From sequence record ON081052: 46,054 nt of DNA; one strand, written 5' to 3'. The DNA is from Escherichia phage vB_EcoS_SCS31. The notes under the pieces are model-generated. The model was not told the origin of the DNA, ran no database searches, and saw only the letters and a program-made list of their open reading frames with translations. Positions 4,401 through 6,414 of the stretch are shown piece by piece; position 1 is the stretch's first letter, and every line of letters begins with the position of its first letter. The position numbers and the translations under genes were made by a program.

Positions 4401-5969
4401 ATGTGTTTAGTGTGGGATGAGCTGACCACGCAGGAAAAGATGGCTATCAAGGCCATCTCTGAGCATAGTTTCGAGGGGTTCTTGCGGTGCTGTCTTCCAA
4501 TAACTCAGGGCGAGAGATTCAAAATGAATTGGCATGCTAAGTATCTATGCCGTGTCATTGATGAGATTCTTGATGGTAAGAGAAAGGATACCATCATAAA
4601 CGTATCTCCTGGTATCTGCAAAACCGAGACTGTTTCGATCCACTTCCCTGTATATAGCATGATTAAGATTAAGAAGGTTAGAAATCTTAGCTTGTCGTTC
4701 TCTGACTCATTGGTTAAGCGCAACTCCAAAAGGGTTCGTGACCTGATTAAGTCAAAGGAGTTCCAGGAGCTTTGGCCCTGCACCTTTGGAACGTGCAGGG
4801 ATGACGAGATTCAGGTTCTTGATGAGAATGGCAAAGTTAGGTTTGAGTCTATATCCAAGGCGATGGCAGGGCAGGTTACAGGAGCAGGTGGCGGCTACAT
4901 GACTGAACGATATAGTGGTTGCATAATGCTTGATGACCCTGACAAAGCCGCTGATATGCTCTCAGTAATGTACCGAGAAGAGAGGCATGTAATGCTCAAG
5001 AACACAATTCGTTCACGTCGAGCTAGCTCAGTGAAGGGAAAGGAAACGCCAATCACTTGCATGCAGCAAGGCTTGCATGTTCTGGACACTAGCCACTTCA
5101 TGGAGTCAGGGCAAATGGGCATCAAGTTCGACGTAGTGAAAATTCCAGCCATAGTAACAGAGGATTACGCCGACACGCTTCCTGAGTGGATCAAGCAACA
5201 ATTTATTGATGATGTTCTTAGTCGTCAATTTGTAGAACGGGATGGGGTTAAGTATTACAGCTACTTTCCGGCAAAGGAGTCAATAGAAGACTTGATGGCT
5301 ATGCGGGATGCCGACCCTTACACATTCCTTAGTCAGTATGCTCAAGAACCTGTAGCTCTGGGTGGCAACCTGATTAACGTGGATTGGTTCCAGCGCATTA
5401 GCGACACATTCAGGCCTCCAGCTAAGTATGATTATAGATTCATAACTTGCGATACTGCGATGACTACAAAGAGTTATAGTGACTTCTCCGTGCTTCAGTT
5501 GTGGGGATATAAGGATGCTAAGATTTACCTTATAGAACAGCGCAGAGGTAAGTGGGAAGCGCCGGAGTTGGAGGCTGAACTACTGGACTTCGGGAAGAAA
5601 TCAAGGGCAACCAGTCAGTCAGATGGCATCCTTCGAAAGATTATCATCGAGAAGAAAGCATCCGGTATCGGCCTGATTCAATCTGCAGGTAGAGTTATGC
5701 GAACACCTATAGAGCCATACGTACCGGATAACGACAAGCTAACCAGGGTAATGAGCGCATTGCCACAGATTAAGGCTGGGAACGTCGTTCTTCCAGAGTC
5801 AGCGCCGTGGCTAAATGGATTGCTTACGGAGATTGCTGCTTTCACCGCAGATGACAGTCACAAAAATGATGACCAAATTGATGCCTTAACAATGGCTGTT
5901 AACCTTGTTCTGAACATTGCTGACGATCCCAGGGCGAGACTAATGCGCATAGCGGGAATCATAAAATAG
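4401..5969 (+). CDS. terminase large subunit
   Basis: 522 aa; C-terminal nuclease-like region with FITCDTAMTT and NDDQIDALTMA acidic motifs; position before portal. Confidence 0.85.
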   Translation: MCLVWDELTTQEKMAIKAISEHSFEGFLRCCLPITQGERFKMNWHAKYLCRVIDEILDGKRKDTIINVSPGICKTETVSIHFPVYSMIKIKKVRNLSLSFSDSLVKRNSKRVRDLIKSKEFQELWPCTFGTCRDDEIQVLDENGKVRFESISKAMAGQVTGAGGGYMTERYSGCIMLDDPDKAADMLSVMYREERHVMLKNTIRSRRASSVKGKETPITCMQQGLHVLDTSHFMESGQMGIKFDVVKIPAIVTEDYADTLPEWIKQQFIDDVLSRQFVERDGVKYYSYFPAKESIEDLMAMRDADPYTFLSQYAQEPVALGGNLINVDWFQRISDTFRPPAKYDYRFITCDTAMTTKSYSDFSVLQLWGYKDAKIYLIEQRRGKWEAPELEAELLDFGKKSRATSQSDGILRKIIIEKKASGIGLIQSAGRVMRTPIEPYVPDNDKLTRVMSALPQIKAGNVVLPESAPWLNGLLTEIAAFTADDSHKNDDQIDALTMAVNLVLNIADDPRARLMRIAGIIK

Positions 5970-6012
5970 CACGAATTGCTAAGCAATGAGGCCACGTATG
6001 GCGTATAGTTAC
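5965..6012 (+). promoter_or_regulatory. phage promoter, palindromic motif class (AATAGCACGAATTGCTAA + TATAGTTAC)
   Basis: Motif read directly; overlaps TerL stop. Confidence 0.5.
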
Positions 6013-6038
6013 CTCACACAAGCGAAGGGAGATAAAAG

Positions 6039-6347
6039 ATGAAAGCAGTATTTAAAGGTTACAAGAAAAATGGTTATCTTAATTTTACTTTTGGTAAAAT
6101 TTATGAGCTATCAACGGCAACTGAGGCTTTCGGATTCTTAAAAGTGACTGATGACGATGGATTTAATGGAGTAATTATCCCAGGTGACACCTATGATTTC
6201 GAGGTGCTGATTCCGGATGAATTTATCAATAAAAAAAGCAATTTAAATATTACATTAATGGCGAAGTGGTTACTAAGACAAAGTTCGACGATACGCTATT
6301 GTGTGTTAAGGACTTTGAAAGAGATGGCATTGATACATCATCAATAA
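6039..6347 (+). CDS. hypothetical moron protein (102 aa)
   Basis: ORF with own promoter copy upstream and terminator downstream, inserted between TerL and portal. Confidence 0.45.
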   Translation: MKAVFKGYKKNGYLNFTFGKIYELSTATEAFGFLKVTDDDGFNGVIIPGDTYDFEVLIPDEFINKKSNLNITLMAKWLLRQSSTIRYCVLRTLKEMALIHHQ

Positions 6348-6391
6348 AGTTCGAGGTAAAATTCGAGTAACCACGAAAGCTATGATAAACT

Positions 6392-6414
6392 AGCCCCCAC
6401 ATGGGGCTTTTTTA
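6392..6414 (+). terminator. rho-independent terminator
   Basis: Hairpin AGCCCCCACATGGGGCT + T-run. Confidence 0.6.

What the first reader, a model, noticed from the sequence alone, without database searches (positions are those of the whole stretch)
5965..6414. Promoter-and-terminator-bracketed moron gene between terminase and portal
A 102-aa ORF (6039-6347) carries its own copy of the palindromic promoter and ends at a terminator, splitting the otherwise contiguous TerL-portal pair. Such autonomous cassettes often encode host-interaction or anti-defence functions. Its N-terminus (MKAVFKGYKKNGY) weakly resembles that of the moron at 18912 (MKKMFQIKFNGYKK).
Basis: partly seen in the sequence, partly recalled or inferred. 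Interest (0 to 1): 0.5.

Follow-up and report, generated by a model that had tools for sequence, protein, structure and literature searches.

The report
Frameshifted accessory cassette between terminase, portal
A small, optional, AT-rich gene with its own promoter-like repeat sits between the terminase and portal genes of a T1-like coliphage, but the 102-residue reading frame is broken by a one-base slip in a run of A's (the real protein is a 110-residue two-domain protein), so this is an ordinary dispensable 'moron-like' cassette with a mis-annotated gene, not a new system.

Summary
The window is a Guelphvirus/Rtp-like Drexlerviridae genome: exact proteins of Escherichia phage vB_EcoS_SCS31, in ACG-M12 coordinates. 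The ORF, an upstream repeat and a downstream terminator are all present, and many relatives have TerL directly followed by portal. Three points need correction.

1. The 102-aa ORF is a frameshift product. An A7 tract (6231-6237) lies where the closest intact relative has A8. Residues 67-102 are out of frame. The selected frame is -1 and ends at 6370, giving a 110-aa protein (PHROG 14592) with an SH3-like N-domain and a ββαβ C-domain.

2. The "palindromic promoter" is the published 21-nt Drexlerviridae intergenic repeat, whose function is unknown. Here it sits a fixed 22 nt upstream of a TATAGT hexamer. No canonical -35 is present.

3. The terminator belongs to the TerL-portal backbone. It is present in cassette-less relatives.

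The gene at 18921 is a true paralogue with the same flanking modules. The cassette is AT-rich (33% versus 46-47% GC) and absent from most relatives. It is recurrently frameshifted at linker A-runs in independent metagenomes. In rV5-like phages it sits among small unknown genes. The reading is therefore an accessory gene, not a core structural one.

The gene body here is identical to the ACG-M12 record and may be reference carry-over or a homopolymer error. Interest is low to moderate.

The parts
5966..5982 (+). Core of the Drexlerviridae 21-nt intergenic repeat (ATAGCACGAATTGCTAA; inverted repeat TAGCA 5967-5971 / TGCTA 5977-5981). It overlaps the TerL stop codon TAG at 5967-5969.
   Evidence: 15 copies with up to 3 mismatches in the window against 0.11 expected. 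All but two lie between annotated genes, oriented with the downstream gene and 70-85 nt before its start codon. It matches the published TLS consensus aaATAGCACnnnTTGnTAAAA (PMC11447400).
6004..6009 (+). -10-like hexamer TATAGT, 22 nt after TTGCTA.
   Evidence: TTGCTA-N20-24-TATAGT occurs 5 times against 0.03 expected. 12-13 of the 15 repeat copies have a -10-like hexamer at 22 (+/-1) nt. The sigma-70 scan did not call it because no -35 lies at 16-18 nt.
6010..6031 (+). Conserved leader and Shine-Dalgarno sequence (AAGGGAG 6025-6031, 7 nt before the ATG).
   Evidence: The leader block (C)ATCGAAACGAGA..GGAG recurs downstream of most repeat copies. It is conserved in SU57, EC3a and Rtp.
6039..6236 (+). 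Frame-0 coding part: Met1-Lys66, the N-terminal SH3-like beta-barrel domain plus the start of the linker.
6231..6237 (+). A7 homopolymer in the interdomain linker: the frameshift site. EC3a has A8; SU57 has AAAGAAAA.
   Evidence: DNA alignments and position check. The tract maps to the low-confidence linker of the model, residues 61-64.
6236..6370 (+). -1 frame coding part: K-QFKYYINGEVVTKTKFDDTLLCVKDFERDGIDTSSIKFEVKFE, stop TAA at 6368-6370. This is the C-terminal beta-beta-alpha-beta domain.
   Evidence: Translation. The reconstructed 110-aa protein matches PHROG 14592 end to end, E 1.5e-38. Differing codons versus EC3a are 9 synonymous to 2 non-synonymous in this frame, against 1:11 in the annotated frame; versus SU57 the counts are 12:6 against 1:18.
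6237..6347 (+). Out-of-frame tail of the annotated 102-aa ORF (residues 67-102, SNLNITLMAKWLLRQSSTIRYCVLRTLKEMALIHHQ*).
   Evidence: It has no match to the family profile. phiEB49 stops three codons after the tract in this frame. Substitutions in this frame are almost all non-synonymous.
6383..6420 (+). Backbone terminator-RBS module: TGATAAACTAG, hairpin 6392-6408, T-run 6408-6413, then the portal Shine-Dalgarno GGAG at 6417-6420. The portal ATG is at 6428.
   Evidence: Terminator scan and fold at -14.8 kcal/mol, z -3.1. The same module directly follows TerL in DTL and MM01. Terminators are annotated at the homologous place in EC3a and MM01. CTTTTTTATTGGAG recurs at 18070 and 19314.
18846..19327 (+). 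Paralogous cassette between the lambda-L-like and K-like tail genes. It comprises the repeat 18846-18862, TATAGT 18884-18889, gp45 18921-19274 (117 aa, intact), and a terminator-RBS module at about 19288-19327.
   Evidence: PHROG 14592 E 3.7e-41. Flanks align with those of the 6039 locus. GC is 33.6% against 43-45% in the neighbours. Terminator fold is -13.7 kcal/mol, z -2.9.

Best explanation
The region is one copy of an optional accessory-gene cassette of T1-like (Drexlerviridae) phages. It is inserted immediately after the TerL stop codon and in front of the TerL-portal terminator.

Shown. The cassette brings its own expression module: the family-wide 21-nt palindromic repeat, a TATAGT hexamer exactly 22 nt downstream, a conserved leader, and an RBS. 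It uses the backbone terminator.

Inferred. This module probably acts as an activator-type or otherwise non-canonical host-RNAP promoter. The palindrome would be centred near -42, so the repeat is most likely a protein-binding site, not a -35 element. The same module precedes mostly non-structural small genes, the primase and an HNH gene. That implies the cassette is transcribed with that regulon and independently of the surrounding late operon.

Shown. The gene belongs to PHROG 14592. It encodes a roughly 110-aa soluble protein with an SH3-like N-domain, a short Lys-rich linker and a beta-beta-alpha-beta C-domain. In this sequence the linker's A-tract is one base short (A7 instead of A8). Frame-0 translation therefore yields the N-domain plus 36 nonsense residues, which is the annotated 102-aa ORF. 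The C-domain can be made only after a -1 slip or reversion, or is in fact intact if A7 is a sequencing or reference artefact.

Inferred, low confidence. The protein is a dispensable, horizontally exchanged, cytoplasmic partner-binding accessory factor involved in host interaction. It is not a core virion component.
For: Identity and context:
- Exact proteins of phage SCS31, in ACG-M12 coordinates.

Frameshift:
- A7 versus A8 or AAAGAAAA in relatives.
- The -1 frame gives the conserved C-terminus.
- The profile match is full-length only after correction.
- Synonymous:non-synonymous counts are 9:2 and 12:6 in the -1 frame, against 1:11 and 1:18 in the annotated frame.

Optional cassette:
- Empty sites of the form TerL-stop AAATAGC|CGTGATAAACTAG-hairpin-T6-ATTGGAG-portal occur in DTL and MM01.
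- The contiguous junction is present in about 50 of 83 related records.
- RobRod40 has an extra HNH gene with its own repeat at the same spot.
- GC is 33% against 46-47% in the flanks.
- The ACG-M12 and phiEB49 alleles are 97.9% identical, while their TerL genes are 69.9% identical.

Paralogue: the gene at 18921 has the same flanking modules.

Promoter module: repeat statistics and geometry; published as a repeat of unknown function (PMC11447400).

Terminator.

Dispensability:
- Independent frameshift alleles occur at linker A-runs in non-identical metagenomic genomes.
- The rV5-like homologue sits among small unknown genes.
Against: - No transcription data exist. The module lacks a -35, and the consensus scan does not call a promoter.
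- The product label in RefSeq and PHROGs is 'virion structural protein'. I could not trace or disprove its experimental basis.
- The gene body 6003-6374 is base-for-base identical to the ACG-M12 record inside an otherwise 14-16% diverged region. The window shows signs of reference-guided consensus, so the A7 here is not independent evidence.
- ACG-M12 and phiEB49 date from 2011-2012, when pyrosequencing was in use, and A8 to A7 is a typical homopolymer undercall. This rests on my own knowledge; the same laboratory corrected two 454 frameshifts in Rogue1 (PMC3496638).
- No functional assignment was obtained from Pfam, PADLOC, PDB sequence search or fold search.
Confidence: 0.6

Rival explanations
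1. The frameshift is not biological. The true phage has A8 and an intact 110-aa gene. A7 would be a homopolymer undercall in the ACG-M12 record (and independently in phiEB49), carried into SCS31 and probably ECH1 by reference-guided assembly.
For: - The window differs from ACG-M12 by 3058 substitutions and 0 indels, in blocks, with 6003-6374 identical.
- All three genomes are exactly 46054 bp.
- The window's TerL is 522 aa and its portal 418 aa, as in ACG-M12, although their sequence clusters are 523 and 422 aa.
- TerL carries residues found in neither parental type at otherwise invariant positions, for example P-loop PGSGKTE/PGSAKTE becoming PGICKTE.
- The closest intact allele (EC3a) has A8.
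- The -1 frame is perfectly intact.
- The same laboratory reported 454-induced frameshifts in a sister phage (PMC3496638).
Against: - phiEB49 is an independent isolate and assembly with the same A7.
- Frameshift alleles at linker A-runs of this gene exist in Illumina-type metagenome assemblies. Each is shared by non-identical genomes from different samples, at 99.7-99.8% identity. Real indels at this spot therefore occur.
Confidence: 0.4
2. The A-tract is a functional switch. Programmed -1 ribosomal frameshifting, transcriptional slippage or slipped-strand phase variation would produce both an N-domain-only protein and the full two-domain protein.
For: - The tract sits exactly in the flexible interdomain linker.
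- A AAA AAA G allows P-site re-pairing onto AAA, followed by AAG.
- Four independent alleles differ by +/-1 A at linker A-runs while keeping the C-domain ORF open.
- The A7 allele is shared by phages of two subfamilies.
Against: - The required shift direction differs between alleles: -1 in ACG-M12, L015 and L018, but +1 in L013.
- Most alleles are in frame, and the commonest type has an interrupted tract, AAAGAAAAG.
- No Shine-Dalgarno-like stimulator lies upstream, and no significant structure lies downstream (z -0.76).
- The L015 allele has substitutions at two otherwise invariant C-domain positions (N74I, E106K), which suggests decay.
- A5 tracts are too short for appreciable slippage (own knowledge).
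Confidence: 0.1
3. It is a genuine minor virion or head-completion protein, as the RefSeq and PHROG label says, occupying the position of lambda gpW between the large terminase and portal genes.
For: - The product name 'virion structural protein' in the PHROG 14592 category 'head and packaging'.
- Location inside the head module, with a second copy inside the tail module.
- Lambda-like gene order (own knowledge).
Against: - The gene is absent from most relatives with the same TerL and portal.
- Frameshifted alleles persist.
- The homologue in 140-kb rV5-like phages lies among small unknown-function genes.
- The fold is SH3-like plus beta-beta-alpha-beta, not gpW-like.
- It is not among the proteins identified in the published Rogue1 and AHP24-group virion analyses, which were gel-band based and of limited sensitivity.
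- GC is 33%, with an own expression module shared with non-structural genes.
Confidence: 0.1
4. One reading: an intact 102-aa protein is the product of an autonomous promoter-to-terminator moron with an anti-defence or host-interaction role.
For: The ORF is open for 102 codons and is annotated as such in three GenBank records. The cassette-like anatomy is real.
Against: - Residues 67-102 match nothing in the family.
- Substitutions in that frame are 1 synonymous to 11-19 non-synonymous.
- phiEB49 terminates after 3 codons in that frame.
- The terminator is part of the backbone.
- No defence-related hit was found.
Confidence: 0.03

Closest known systems
Morons of lambdoid and other tailed phages (Hendrix/Juhala definition; own knowledge)
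   Same: An extra gene sits between two genes that are adjacent in relatives. It has atypical (AT-rich) composition, a promoter-like element upstream and an intrinsic terminator downstream, and it lies inside the late structural operon.
   Different: The phage is virulent, so there is no expression from a repressed prophage. The terminator pre-exists at the empty site. The upstream element is a phage-family repeat, not a canonical sigma-70 promoter. The gene is disrupted in this genome.
PeSL mobile regulatory cassettes of T4-type phages (Arbiol et al. 2010, PMC2839356; PMC4122927)
   Same: Short conserved promoter and stem-loop motifs are repeated through the genome and flank small non-essential ORFs. 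Insertion, deletion and replacement differences between relatives are bounded by the motifs. Gene ends and flanks are far more conserved than gene interiors.
   Different: The sequence motifs and phage family differ. Here the promoter-like and terminator modules are separate, not one composite unit. Promoter and terminator activity and mini-circles were shown experimentally for PeSLs; nothing has been shown here.
21-nt intergenic direct repeats of phage TLS (aaATAGCACnnnTTGnTAAAA; PMC11447400)
   Same: Same consensus, orientation with transcription, and position about 76 nt upstream of start codons. The authors state that similar repeats occur in T1, Rtp and Rogue1.
   Different: That paper leaves the function open (stoperator, enhancer site or UP element). 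In this window a -10-like hexamer lies at a fixed 22 nt and a conserved leader follows, which favours a promoter-associated protein-binding site. This remains untested.
PHROG 14592 ('virion structural protein'): Rtp22, phiEB49 gp57/gp37, JK06 JK_35P, Rogue1 gene 34
   Same: Sequence family membership holds for both window genes. The two chromosomal positions are the same: TerL|portal and tail L|K.
   Different: The window's TerL|portal copy is frameshifted. The 'structural' label is unsupported by anything I could find.
Small SH3-like accessory proteins of Drexlerviridae: DUF7244 (e.g. window gp14) and Gp54 of Bas11 (PDB 9AXB, CapRel trigger; PMC11578894)
   Different: Sequence similarity is negligible (hhalign probability 11%; Pfam DUF7244 E 0.08 for Rtp22 only). 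The family here has an additional C-domain. No defence interaction is known.
dnaX-type -1 programmed frameshifting on A AAA AAG, and transcriptional slippage on A-runs (own knowledge)
   Same: An A-run followed by G, with a slip that yields AAG and a C-terminally extended product.
   Different: No stimulatory elements are present, the frameshift configuration is not conserved, and the needed direction is inconsistent among alleles.

Membership tests
Moron | Extra gene between two genes that are adjacent in related phages | tested here: met
   DTL, MM01, FP, BEK1-1, BEK6, JeanPiccard, MSK, phiA2-1 and about 43 vB_EcoS-#### records have TerL directly followed by the terminator and portal.
Moron | Own promoter immediately upstream | tested here: inconclusive
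   The repeat plus TATAGT at a fixed 22 nt is statistically strong. However, there is no -35 at 16-18 nt, no hit in the sigma-70 scan, and no transcript data.
Moron | Own factor-independent terminator immediately downstream | tested here: not met
   A good terminator is present, but the identical module follows TerL in cassette-less phages. It therefore belongs to the backbone, not to the insert.
Moron | Nucleotide composition distinct from neighbours | tested here: met
   GC is 33.4% against 46.2% (TerL) and 46.9% (portal). The paralogue is 33.6% against 43-45%.
Moron | Expressed autonomously and confers a benefit to host or phage | not testable with these tools
   Needs transcriptomics and phenotypic assays.
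PHROG 14592 | Full-length match to the family profile | tested here: met
   The reconstructed 110 aa match profile positions 2-116 of 116, E 1.5e-38. The annotated 102 aa match only residues 1-64, E 1.2e-18. gp45 gives E 3.7e-41.
Drexlerviridae 21-nt intergenic repeat | Consensus aaATAGCACnnnTTGnTAAAA, intergenic, co-oriented with transcription, about 76 nt before a start codon | tested here: met
   aaATAGCACgaaTTGcTAAgc lies at 5964-5984, 73 nt before the ATG at 6039. The consensus is from PMC11447400.
PeSL-type mobile regulatory cassette | Repeated promoter/stem-loop motifs bounding indels and replacements of non-essential ORFs | tested here: met
   Insertion boundaries coincide with the repeat and the terminator module. 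Flanks and gene ends are near-identical across alleles with 36% amino-acid identity. HNH and paralogue insertions carry the same module.
PeSL-type mobile regulatory cassette | Sequence homology to T4-type PeSL motifs; demonstrated promoter and terminator activity; mini-circles | not tested
   The motif sequence was not compared with T4-type PeSLs, and the host phage family differs. No experiments were done. This is an analogy only, not membership.
Programmed -1 ribosomal frameshift (dnaX-like) | Canonical X XXY YYZ heptamer in the 0 frame | tested here: not met
   The 0-frame reads AAT AAA AAA AGC. The base preceding the run is T, so tandem re-pairing is imperfect and only single P-site slippage is possible.
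Programmed -1 ribosomal frameshift (dnaX-like) | Stimulatory upstream SD-like element and/or downstream structure | tested here: not met
   No GGAG- or AGGA-like element lies 8-15 nt upstream. The downstream 65 nt fold at -8.9 kcal/mol, z -0.76.
Programmed -1 ribosomal frameshift (dnaX-like) | Frameshift configuration conserved among homologues | tested here: not met
   Most homologues are in frame. Disrupted alleles need shifts in opposite directions.
Lambda gpW-like head-completion / core virion protein | Universal presence in related phages and a gpW-like fold | tested here: not met
   Absent from most relatives. The predicted fold is SH3-like plus beta-beta-alpha-beta.
Lambda gpW-like head-completion / core virion protein | Physical presence in virions | not testable with these tools
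   Only the annotation label exists. It is not among the proteins reported in two gel-based T1-like virion proteomes.

The most novel reading that the evidence does not exclude
The Lys-codon A-tract in the interdomain linker of this gene family is a slippage-prone switch, acting through slipped-strand mutation and/or transcriptional or ribosomal slippage. It would toggle a virulent phage's accessory protein between an SH3-domain-only form and a two-domain form. It would sit inside a mobile cassette whose palindromic 21-nt repeat is the operator of a phage-encoded activator. That would also answer the open question of what the Drexlerviridae intergenic repeats do.
Probability: 0.1. Interest if true: 0.6.

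Novelty: new member of a known kind. Interest (0 to 1): 0.3.

Why it matters
The main value is as a correction and as context.

1. Three GenBank/RefSeq records annotate a 102-aa (or 68-aa) 'virion structural protein' that is really a frameshifted 110-aa two-domain accessory protein. The 'structural' label propagates without visible evidence.

2. The cassette shows that Drexlerviridae shuffle small AT-rich genes, including HNH genes, into fixed hot spots. These hot spots are bounded by a conserved promoter-like repeat and a conserved terminator-RBS module. This parallels T4-type PeSLs and suggests a testable role for the 21-nt repeats that the TLS authors list as an open question.

3. Recurrent +/-1 A changes in the linker mark the gene as dispensable or switchable. 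This matters for anyone mining such cassettes for anti-defence genes.

4. The window itself looks like a reference-guided consensus, which is a caution for any fine-scale inference from it.

Tried and rejected
- A scan of IMG/VR for the A-tract context found only phiEB49 and EC3a themselves.
- The single metagenome DNA scan gave one unrelated AT-rich chance match.
- The search for related loci in IMG/VR returned only 3 loci.
- The Rfam search of 5800-6600 gave nothing above threshold.
- PADLOC gave no hits. Pfam gave no hits except a sub-threshold DUF7244 match for Rtp22.
- The PDB sequence profile search gave only chance-level matches, E >= 0.016.
- The afdb50 library was unavailable.
I modelled the 95%-identical EC3a protein instead.
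- Literature searches for proteomic evidence on phiEB49 gp57, and for T1-like transcription-start data, found nothing usable.
- I considered TTGCTA as a -35 element and rejected it because the spacer is 22 nt in every copy.
- I considered the 10-nt complementarity between the A-tract region and the terminator T-run and judged it to be chance-level low-complexity pairing.
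Full report
**Provenance**

The window's coordinates coincide exactly with Escherichia phage vB_EcoS_ACG-M12 (NC_019404.1, 46,054 bp; Drexlerviridae, Braunvirinae, Guelphvirus). There the ORF 6039-6347 is D861_gp63, 'virion structural protein, similar to phiEB49 gp57'.

The window is not that record, however. It differs by 3058 substitutions and no indels, arranged in blocks, and 6003-6374 is identical. Exact-sequence look-up identifies the window's TerL, portal and 102-aa protein as UOX39691-3 of phage vB_EcoS_SCS31, also 46,054 bp.

Several features suggest the deposited sequence is a reference-guided consensus on ACG-M12:
- The substitutions are mostly synonymous, so the diverged blocks reflect a real Rtp/DTL-like phage.
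- There are no indels at all.
- TerL and portal have ACG-M12 lengths (522 and 418 aa), although they sit in clusters of 523 and 422 aa.
- TerL has residues that match neither parental type at otherwise invariant positions, for example P-loop PGSGKTE/PGSAKTE becoming PGICKTE.

The gene body studied here may therefore be carried over from ACG-M12.

**The observation**

The ORF is there.

Upstream, ATAGCACGAATTGCTAA (5966-5982) contains the inverted repeat TAGCA-N5-TGCTA and overlaps the TerL stop codon. It is one of 15 copies (up to 3 mismatches) in the window, against 0.11 expected. All but two copies lie between annotated genes, oriented with the downstream gene and 70-85 nt before its start.

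In 12-13 of the 15 copies a -10-like hexamer follows TTGCTA at 22 (+/-1) nt; here it is TATAGT at 6004-6009. The pattern TTGCTA-N20-24-TATAGT occurs 5 times against 0.03 expected. A conserved leader (C)ATCGAAACGAGA and an RBS follow.

The sigma-70 scan reports no + strand promoter here, because a 22-nt gap excludes TTGCTA as a -35. With a start about 7 nt after the hexamer, the palindrome would be centred near -42. That is the geometry of a class-II-type activator site; this is my inference.

The motif is already published. Phage TLS has 18 intergenic copies of aaATAGCACnnnTTGnTAAAA, about 76 nt upstream of start codons. Similar repeats are noted in T1, Rtp and Rogue1, and their function is explicitly listed as an open question (PMC11447400).

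A candidate binder in the window is gp29 (33144-33650, minus strand). It gives sub-threshold Cro/CI-type HTH hits.

Downstream, the hairpin 6392-6408 plus T-run is a good intrinsic terminator (-14.8 kcal/mol, z -3.1). Terminators are annotated at the homologous place in EC3a and MM01.

**The gene is frameshifted**

The 0-frame C-terminus looks unlike a protein. An A7 tract lies at 6231-6237. The -1 frame after the tract reads KQFKYYINGEVVTKTKFDDTLLCVKDFERDGIDTSSIKFEVKFE* and ends at 6368-6370.

Relatives encode intact 110-aa (EC3a, SU57, PCEc3, G8) or 118-aa (Rtp22) proteins with exactly this C-terminus. EC3a has A8, and SU57 has AAAGAAAA, where the window has A7.

| Test | Reconstructed 110 aa / -1 frame | Annotated 102 aa / 0 frame |
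|---|---|---|
| Match to PHROG 14592 | End to end, E 1.5e-38 | Residues 1-64 only, E 1.2e-18 |
| Differing codons vs EC3a (syn:non-syn) | 9:2 | 1:11 |
| Differing codons vs SU57 (syn:non-syn) | 12:6 | 1:18 |

Residues 67-102 of the annotated protein are therefore read-through in the wrong frame.

The same A7 is in ACG-M12, ECH1 and phiEB49. In phiEB49 the 0-frame stops after three codons, which is why its gp57 is annotated as 68 aa. The ACG-M12 and phiEB49 alleles are 97.9% identical, whereas their TerL genes are 69.9% identical and their portal genes 90.2%. The allele has therefore moved horizontally between subfamilies.

**Is the frameshift real?**

Against:
- ACG-M12 and phiEB49 are 2011-2012 genomes. 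The ACG-M12 laboratory reported correcting 454-induced frameshifts in a sister phage.
- ECH1 and SCS31 share ACG-M12's exact length, so they are doubtful as independent witnesses.

For:
- The family shows other, clearly real, +/-1 A alleles at linker A-runs at the same TerL|portal site in short-read metagenome assemblies.
- L013/L014 have GATAAAAAAACC (A7 where A6 is needed, a +1 shift). They come from two samples and are 99.7% identical.
- L015/L016/L017 have GATAAAAACC (A5 where A6 is needed). They come from three samples and are 99.8-100% identical.
- L018 has GTAAAAATCC (A5 where A6 is needed).
- In each, the C-domain ORF is still open in the shifted frame. L015 carries changes at two otherwise invariant positions (N74I, E106K), which suggests decay.

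A programmed shift is unlikely:
- The needed direction differs between alleles.
- Most alleles are in frame.
- The commonest allele type has an interrupted tract.
- There is no upstream Shine-Dalgarno-like element and no downstream structure (z -0.76).

My estimates are about 0.4 that A7 in this lineage is an artefact, about 0.5 that it is a plain truncating allele, and about 0.1 that slippage is used functionally.

**The protein**

AlphaFold2 on the EC3a orthologue (95% identical, with an alignment of 30 family members) gives mean pLDDT 87.5. The model has:
- a five-stranded beta-barrel (residues 2-56);
- a low-confidence linker (61-64), which is exactly where the A-tract lies;
- a beta-beta-alpha-beta C-domain (69-109).

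The window's own gp14 (40864-41040) is a DUF7244 protein and is also preceded by the repeat. The profile comparison with the N-domain is weak, at probability 11%.

Nothing was found in Pfam, PADLOC or PDB sequences.

The family is small: 41 representatives among 1.84 billion clustered proteins. Termini are strongly conserved (MKAVFKGYKK...SSIKFEVKFE), the interior is variable and indel-rich, and there is evident domain swapping.

**The cassette and its relatives**

In DTL and MM01 the TerL stop is followed directly by the terminator...AAATAGC|CGTGATAAACTAG-hairpin-TTTTTTATTGGAG-ATG(portal). In the window, the repeat, leader and gene are inserted between AAATAGC and TGATAAACTAG. The terminator is thus backbone, not cargo.

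A junction query shows the contiguous (empty) configuration in about 50 of 83 related records. About 43 of these are near-identical isolates from one study. The interrupted configuration appears in the remainder.

RobRod40 carries an extra HNH gene at the same spot, with its own repeat.

The gene at 18921-19274 (gp45) lies between the lambda-L-like and K-like tail genes. It belongs to the same PHROG (E 3.7e-41) and has the same upstream repeat, hexamer and leader and the same terminator-RBS module. Rogue1's authors noted this gene as the one exception to lambda synteny, and TLS lacks it.

Both paralogues are AT-rich, at 33-34% GC against 43-47% in their neighbours.

In 140-kb rV5-like phages the homologue sits in a row of small unknown-function genes.

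Across alleles as divergent as Rtp22 (36% amino-acid identity), the flanks and the first and last roughly 30 nt of the gene are nearly identical. This is the signature of exchange by recombination through conserved regulatory modules. It is analogous to, but not homologous with, the PeSL cassettes of T4-type phages (PMC2839356).

**Interpretation**

The condition it set for refutation is not met.

The protein it described is a frameshift artefact or truncation. The terminator is shared with the backbone. The promoter is an inference resting on a published repeat of unknown function.

The 'virion structural protein' label has no support I could find. It is hard to reconcile with the patchy distribution, the tolerated frameshifts, and an expression module shared with non-structural genes (small ORFs at both genome ends, primase, HNH, Cor-like lipoprotein).

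My committed reading is a dispensable, horizontally exchanged accessory protein. It would be made from its own non-canonical promoter module, and its SH3-like domain would bind a host or phage partner. The functional part is low-confidence inference.

Noticed in passing
whole window (e.g. identical blocks 1-3543, 6003-6374, 7620-8540, 9313-10823, 24363-26621, 28434-31789, 35269-37269, 39650-46054): The window carries the exact proteins of phage vB_EcoS_SCS31 and has the same length as ACG-M12. It differs from ACG-M12 by 3058 substitutions and 0 indels, in blocks. TerL and portal keep ACG-M12 lengths, and TerL has 'hybrid' residues at invariant positions (P-loop PGICKTE). It looks like a reference-guided consensus, so fine-scale features may be chimeric.
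   Followed up: partly
window 2116, 2747, 5966, 13125, 17152, 18846, 25435(-), 25752(-), 32098, 33157(-), 36163, 40779, 44831(-), 46013(-): This is a genome-wide expression module: the 21-nt repeat, a -10-like hexamer exactly 22 (+/-1) nt later, the conserved leader CATCGAAACGAGA, and an RBS. It precedes mostly small non-structural genes, the primase, an HNH gene and the Cor-like lipoprotein gene. The geometry puts the palindrome near -42. The published repeat has no assigned function.
   Followed up: partly
window 6383-6420, 18050-18083, 19288-19327: There is a second repeated module: (T)TAAACTAG, a GC hairpin, then TTTTTTATTGGAG and the start codon of the next gene. CTTTTTTATTGGAG occurs 3 times. 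The copy at 18050-18083 (between gp47 and gp46) has no cassette in front of it.
   Followed up: partly
window 32098-32114 (+) and 37852-37868 (-): These are orphan copies of the repeat. One lies on the + strand between two minus-strand genes (tail fibre and primase), with no downstream + gene. The other lies inside gp19, without a -10-like hexamer.
   Followed up: no
window 18912 vs 18921: The start of the paralogue is uncertain. RefSeq ACG-M12 uses 18921. The GGAG lies about 9 nt before 18921 and abuts 18912, and the family alignment begins at MFQIKFNGY, so 18921 is more plausible.
   Followed up: partly
window 25679-25724 (- strand): The annotated start of gp39 (25724) lies between the repeat and its -10-like hexamer. 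An in-frame ATG at 25679, preceded by AAGGAG, fits the module spacing (73 nt) better.
   Followed up: no
window 40864-41040: gp14 is a stand-alone DUF7244 protein (E 2e-29), a small SH3-like barrel, also driven by the repeat module. It shares the FTV..Y....GYY.V.DD pattern with the N-domain of the cassette protein, but the profile match is weak.
   Followed up: partly
L020 (RobRod40) 1573-2627; L007 (phiEB49) 381-869: HNH endonuclease genes are inserted next to TerL in relatives: between TerL and the cassette in RobRod40, with its own ATAGCAC repeat, and between TerS and TerL in phiEB49 and Rtp. The TerL borders are an insertion hot spot.
   Followed up: no
window 6227-6236 vs 6408-6417: The A-tract region CAATAAAAAA is perfectly complementary to the terminator tail TTTTTTATTG (10 nt, within 22-nt arms at 77%). 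I judged it chance-level for low-complexity sequence.
   Followed up: no
L006 (ECH1) 6039-6370: The ECH1 allele is recombinant. Its 5' half is EC3a-type and its 3' half, including A7, is ACG-M12-type. ECH1 also has exactly 46,054 bp despite 19 gap openings relative to ACG-M12.
   Followed up: partly
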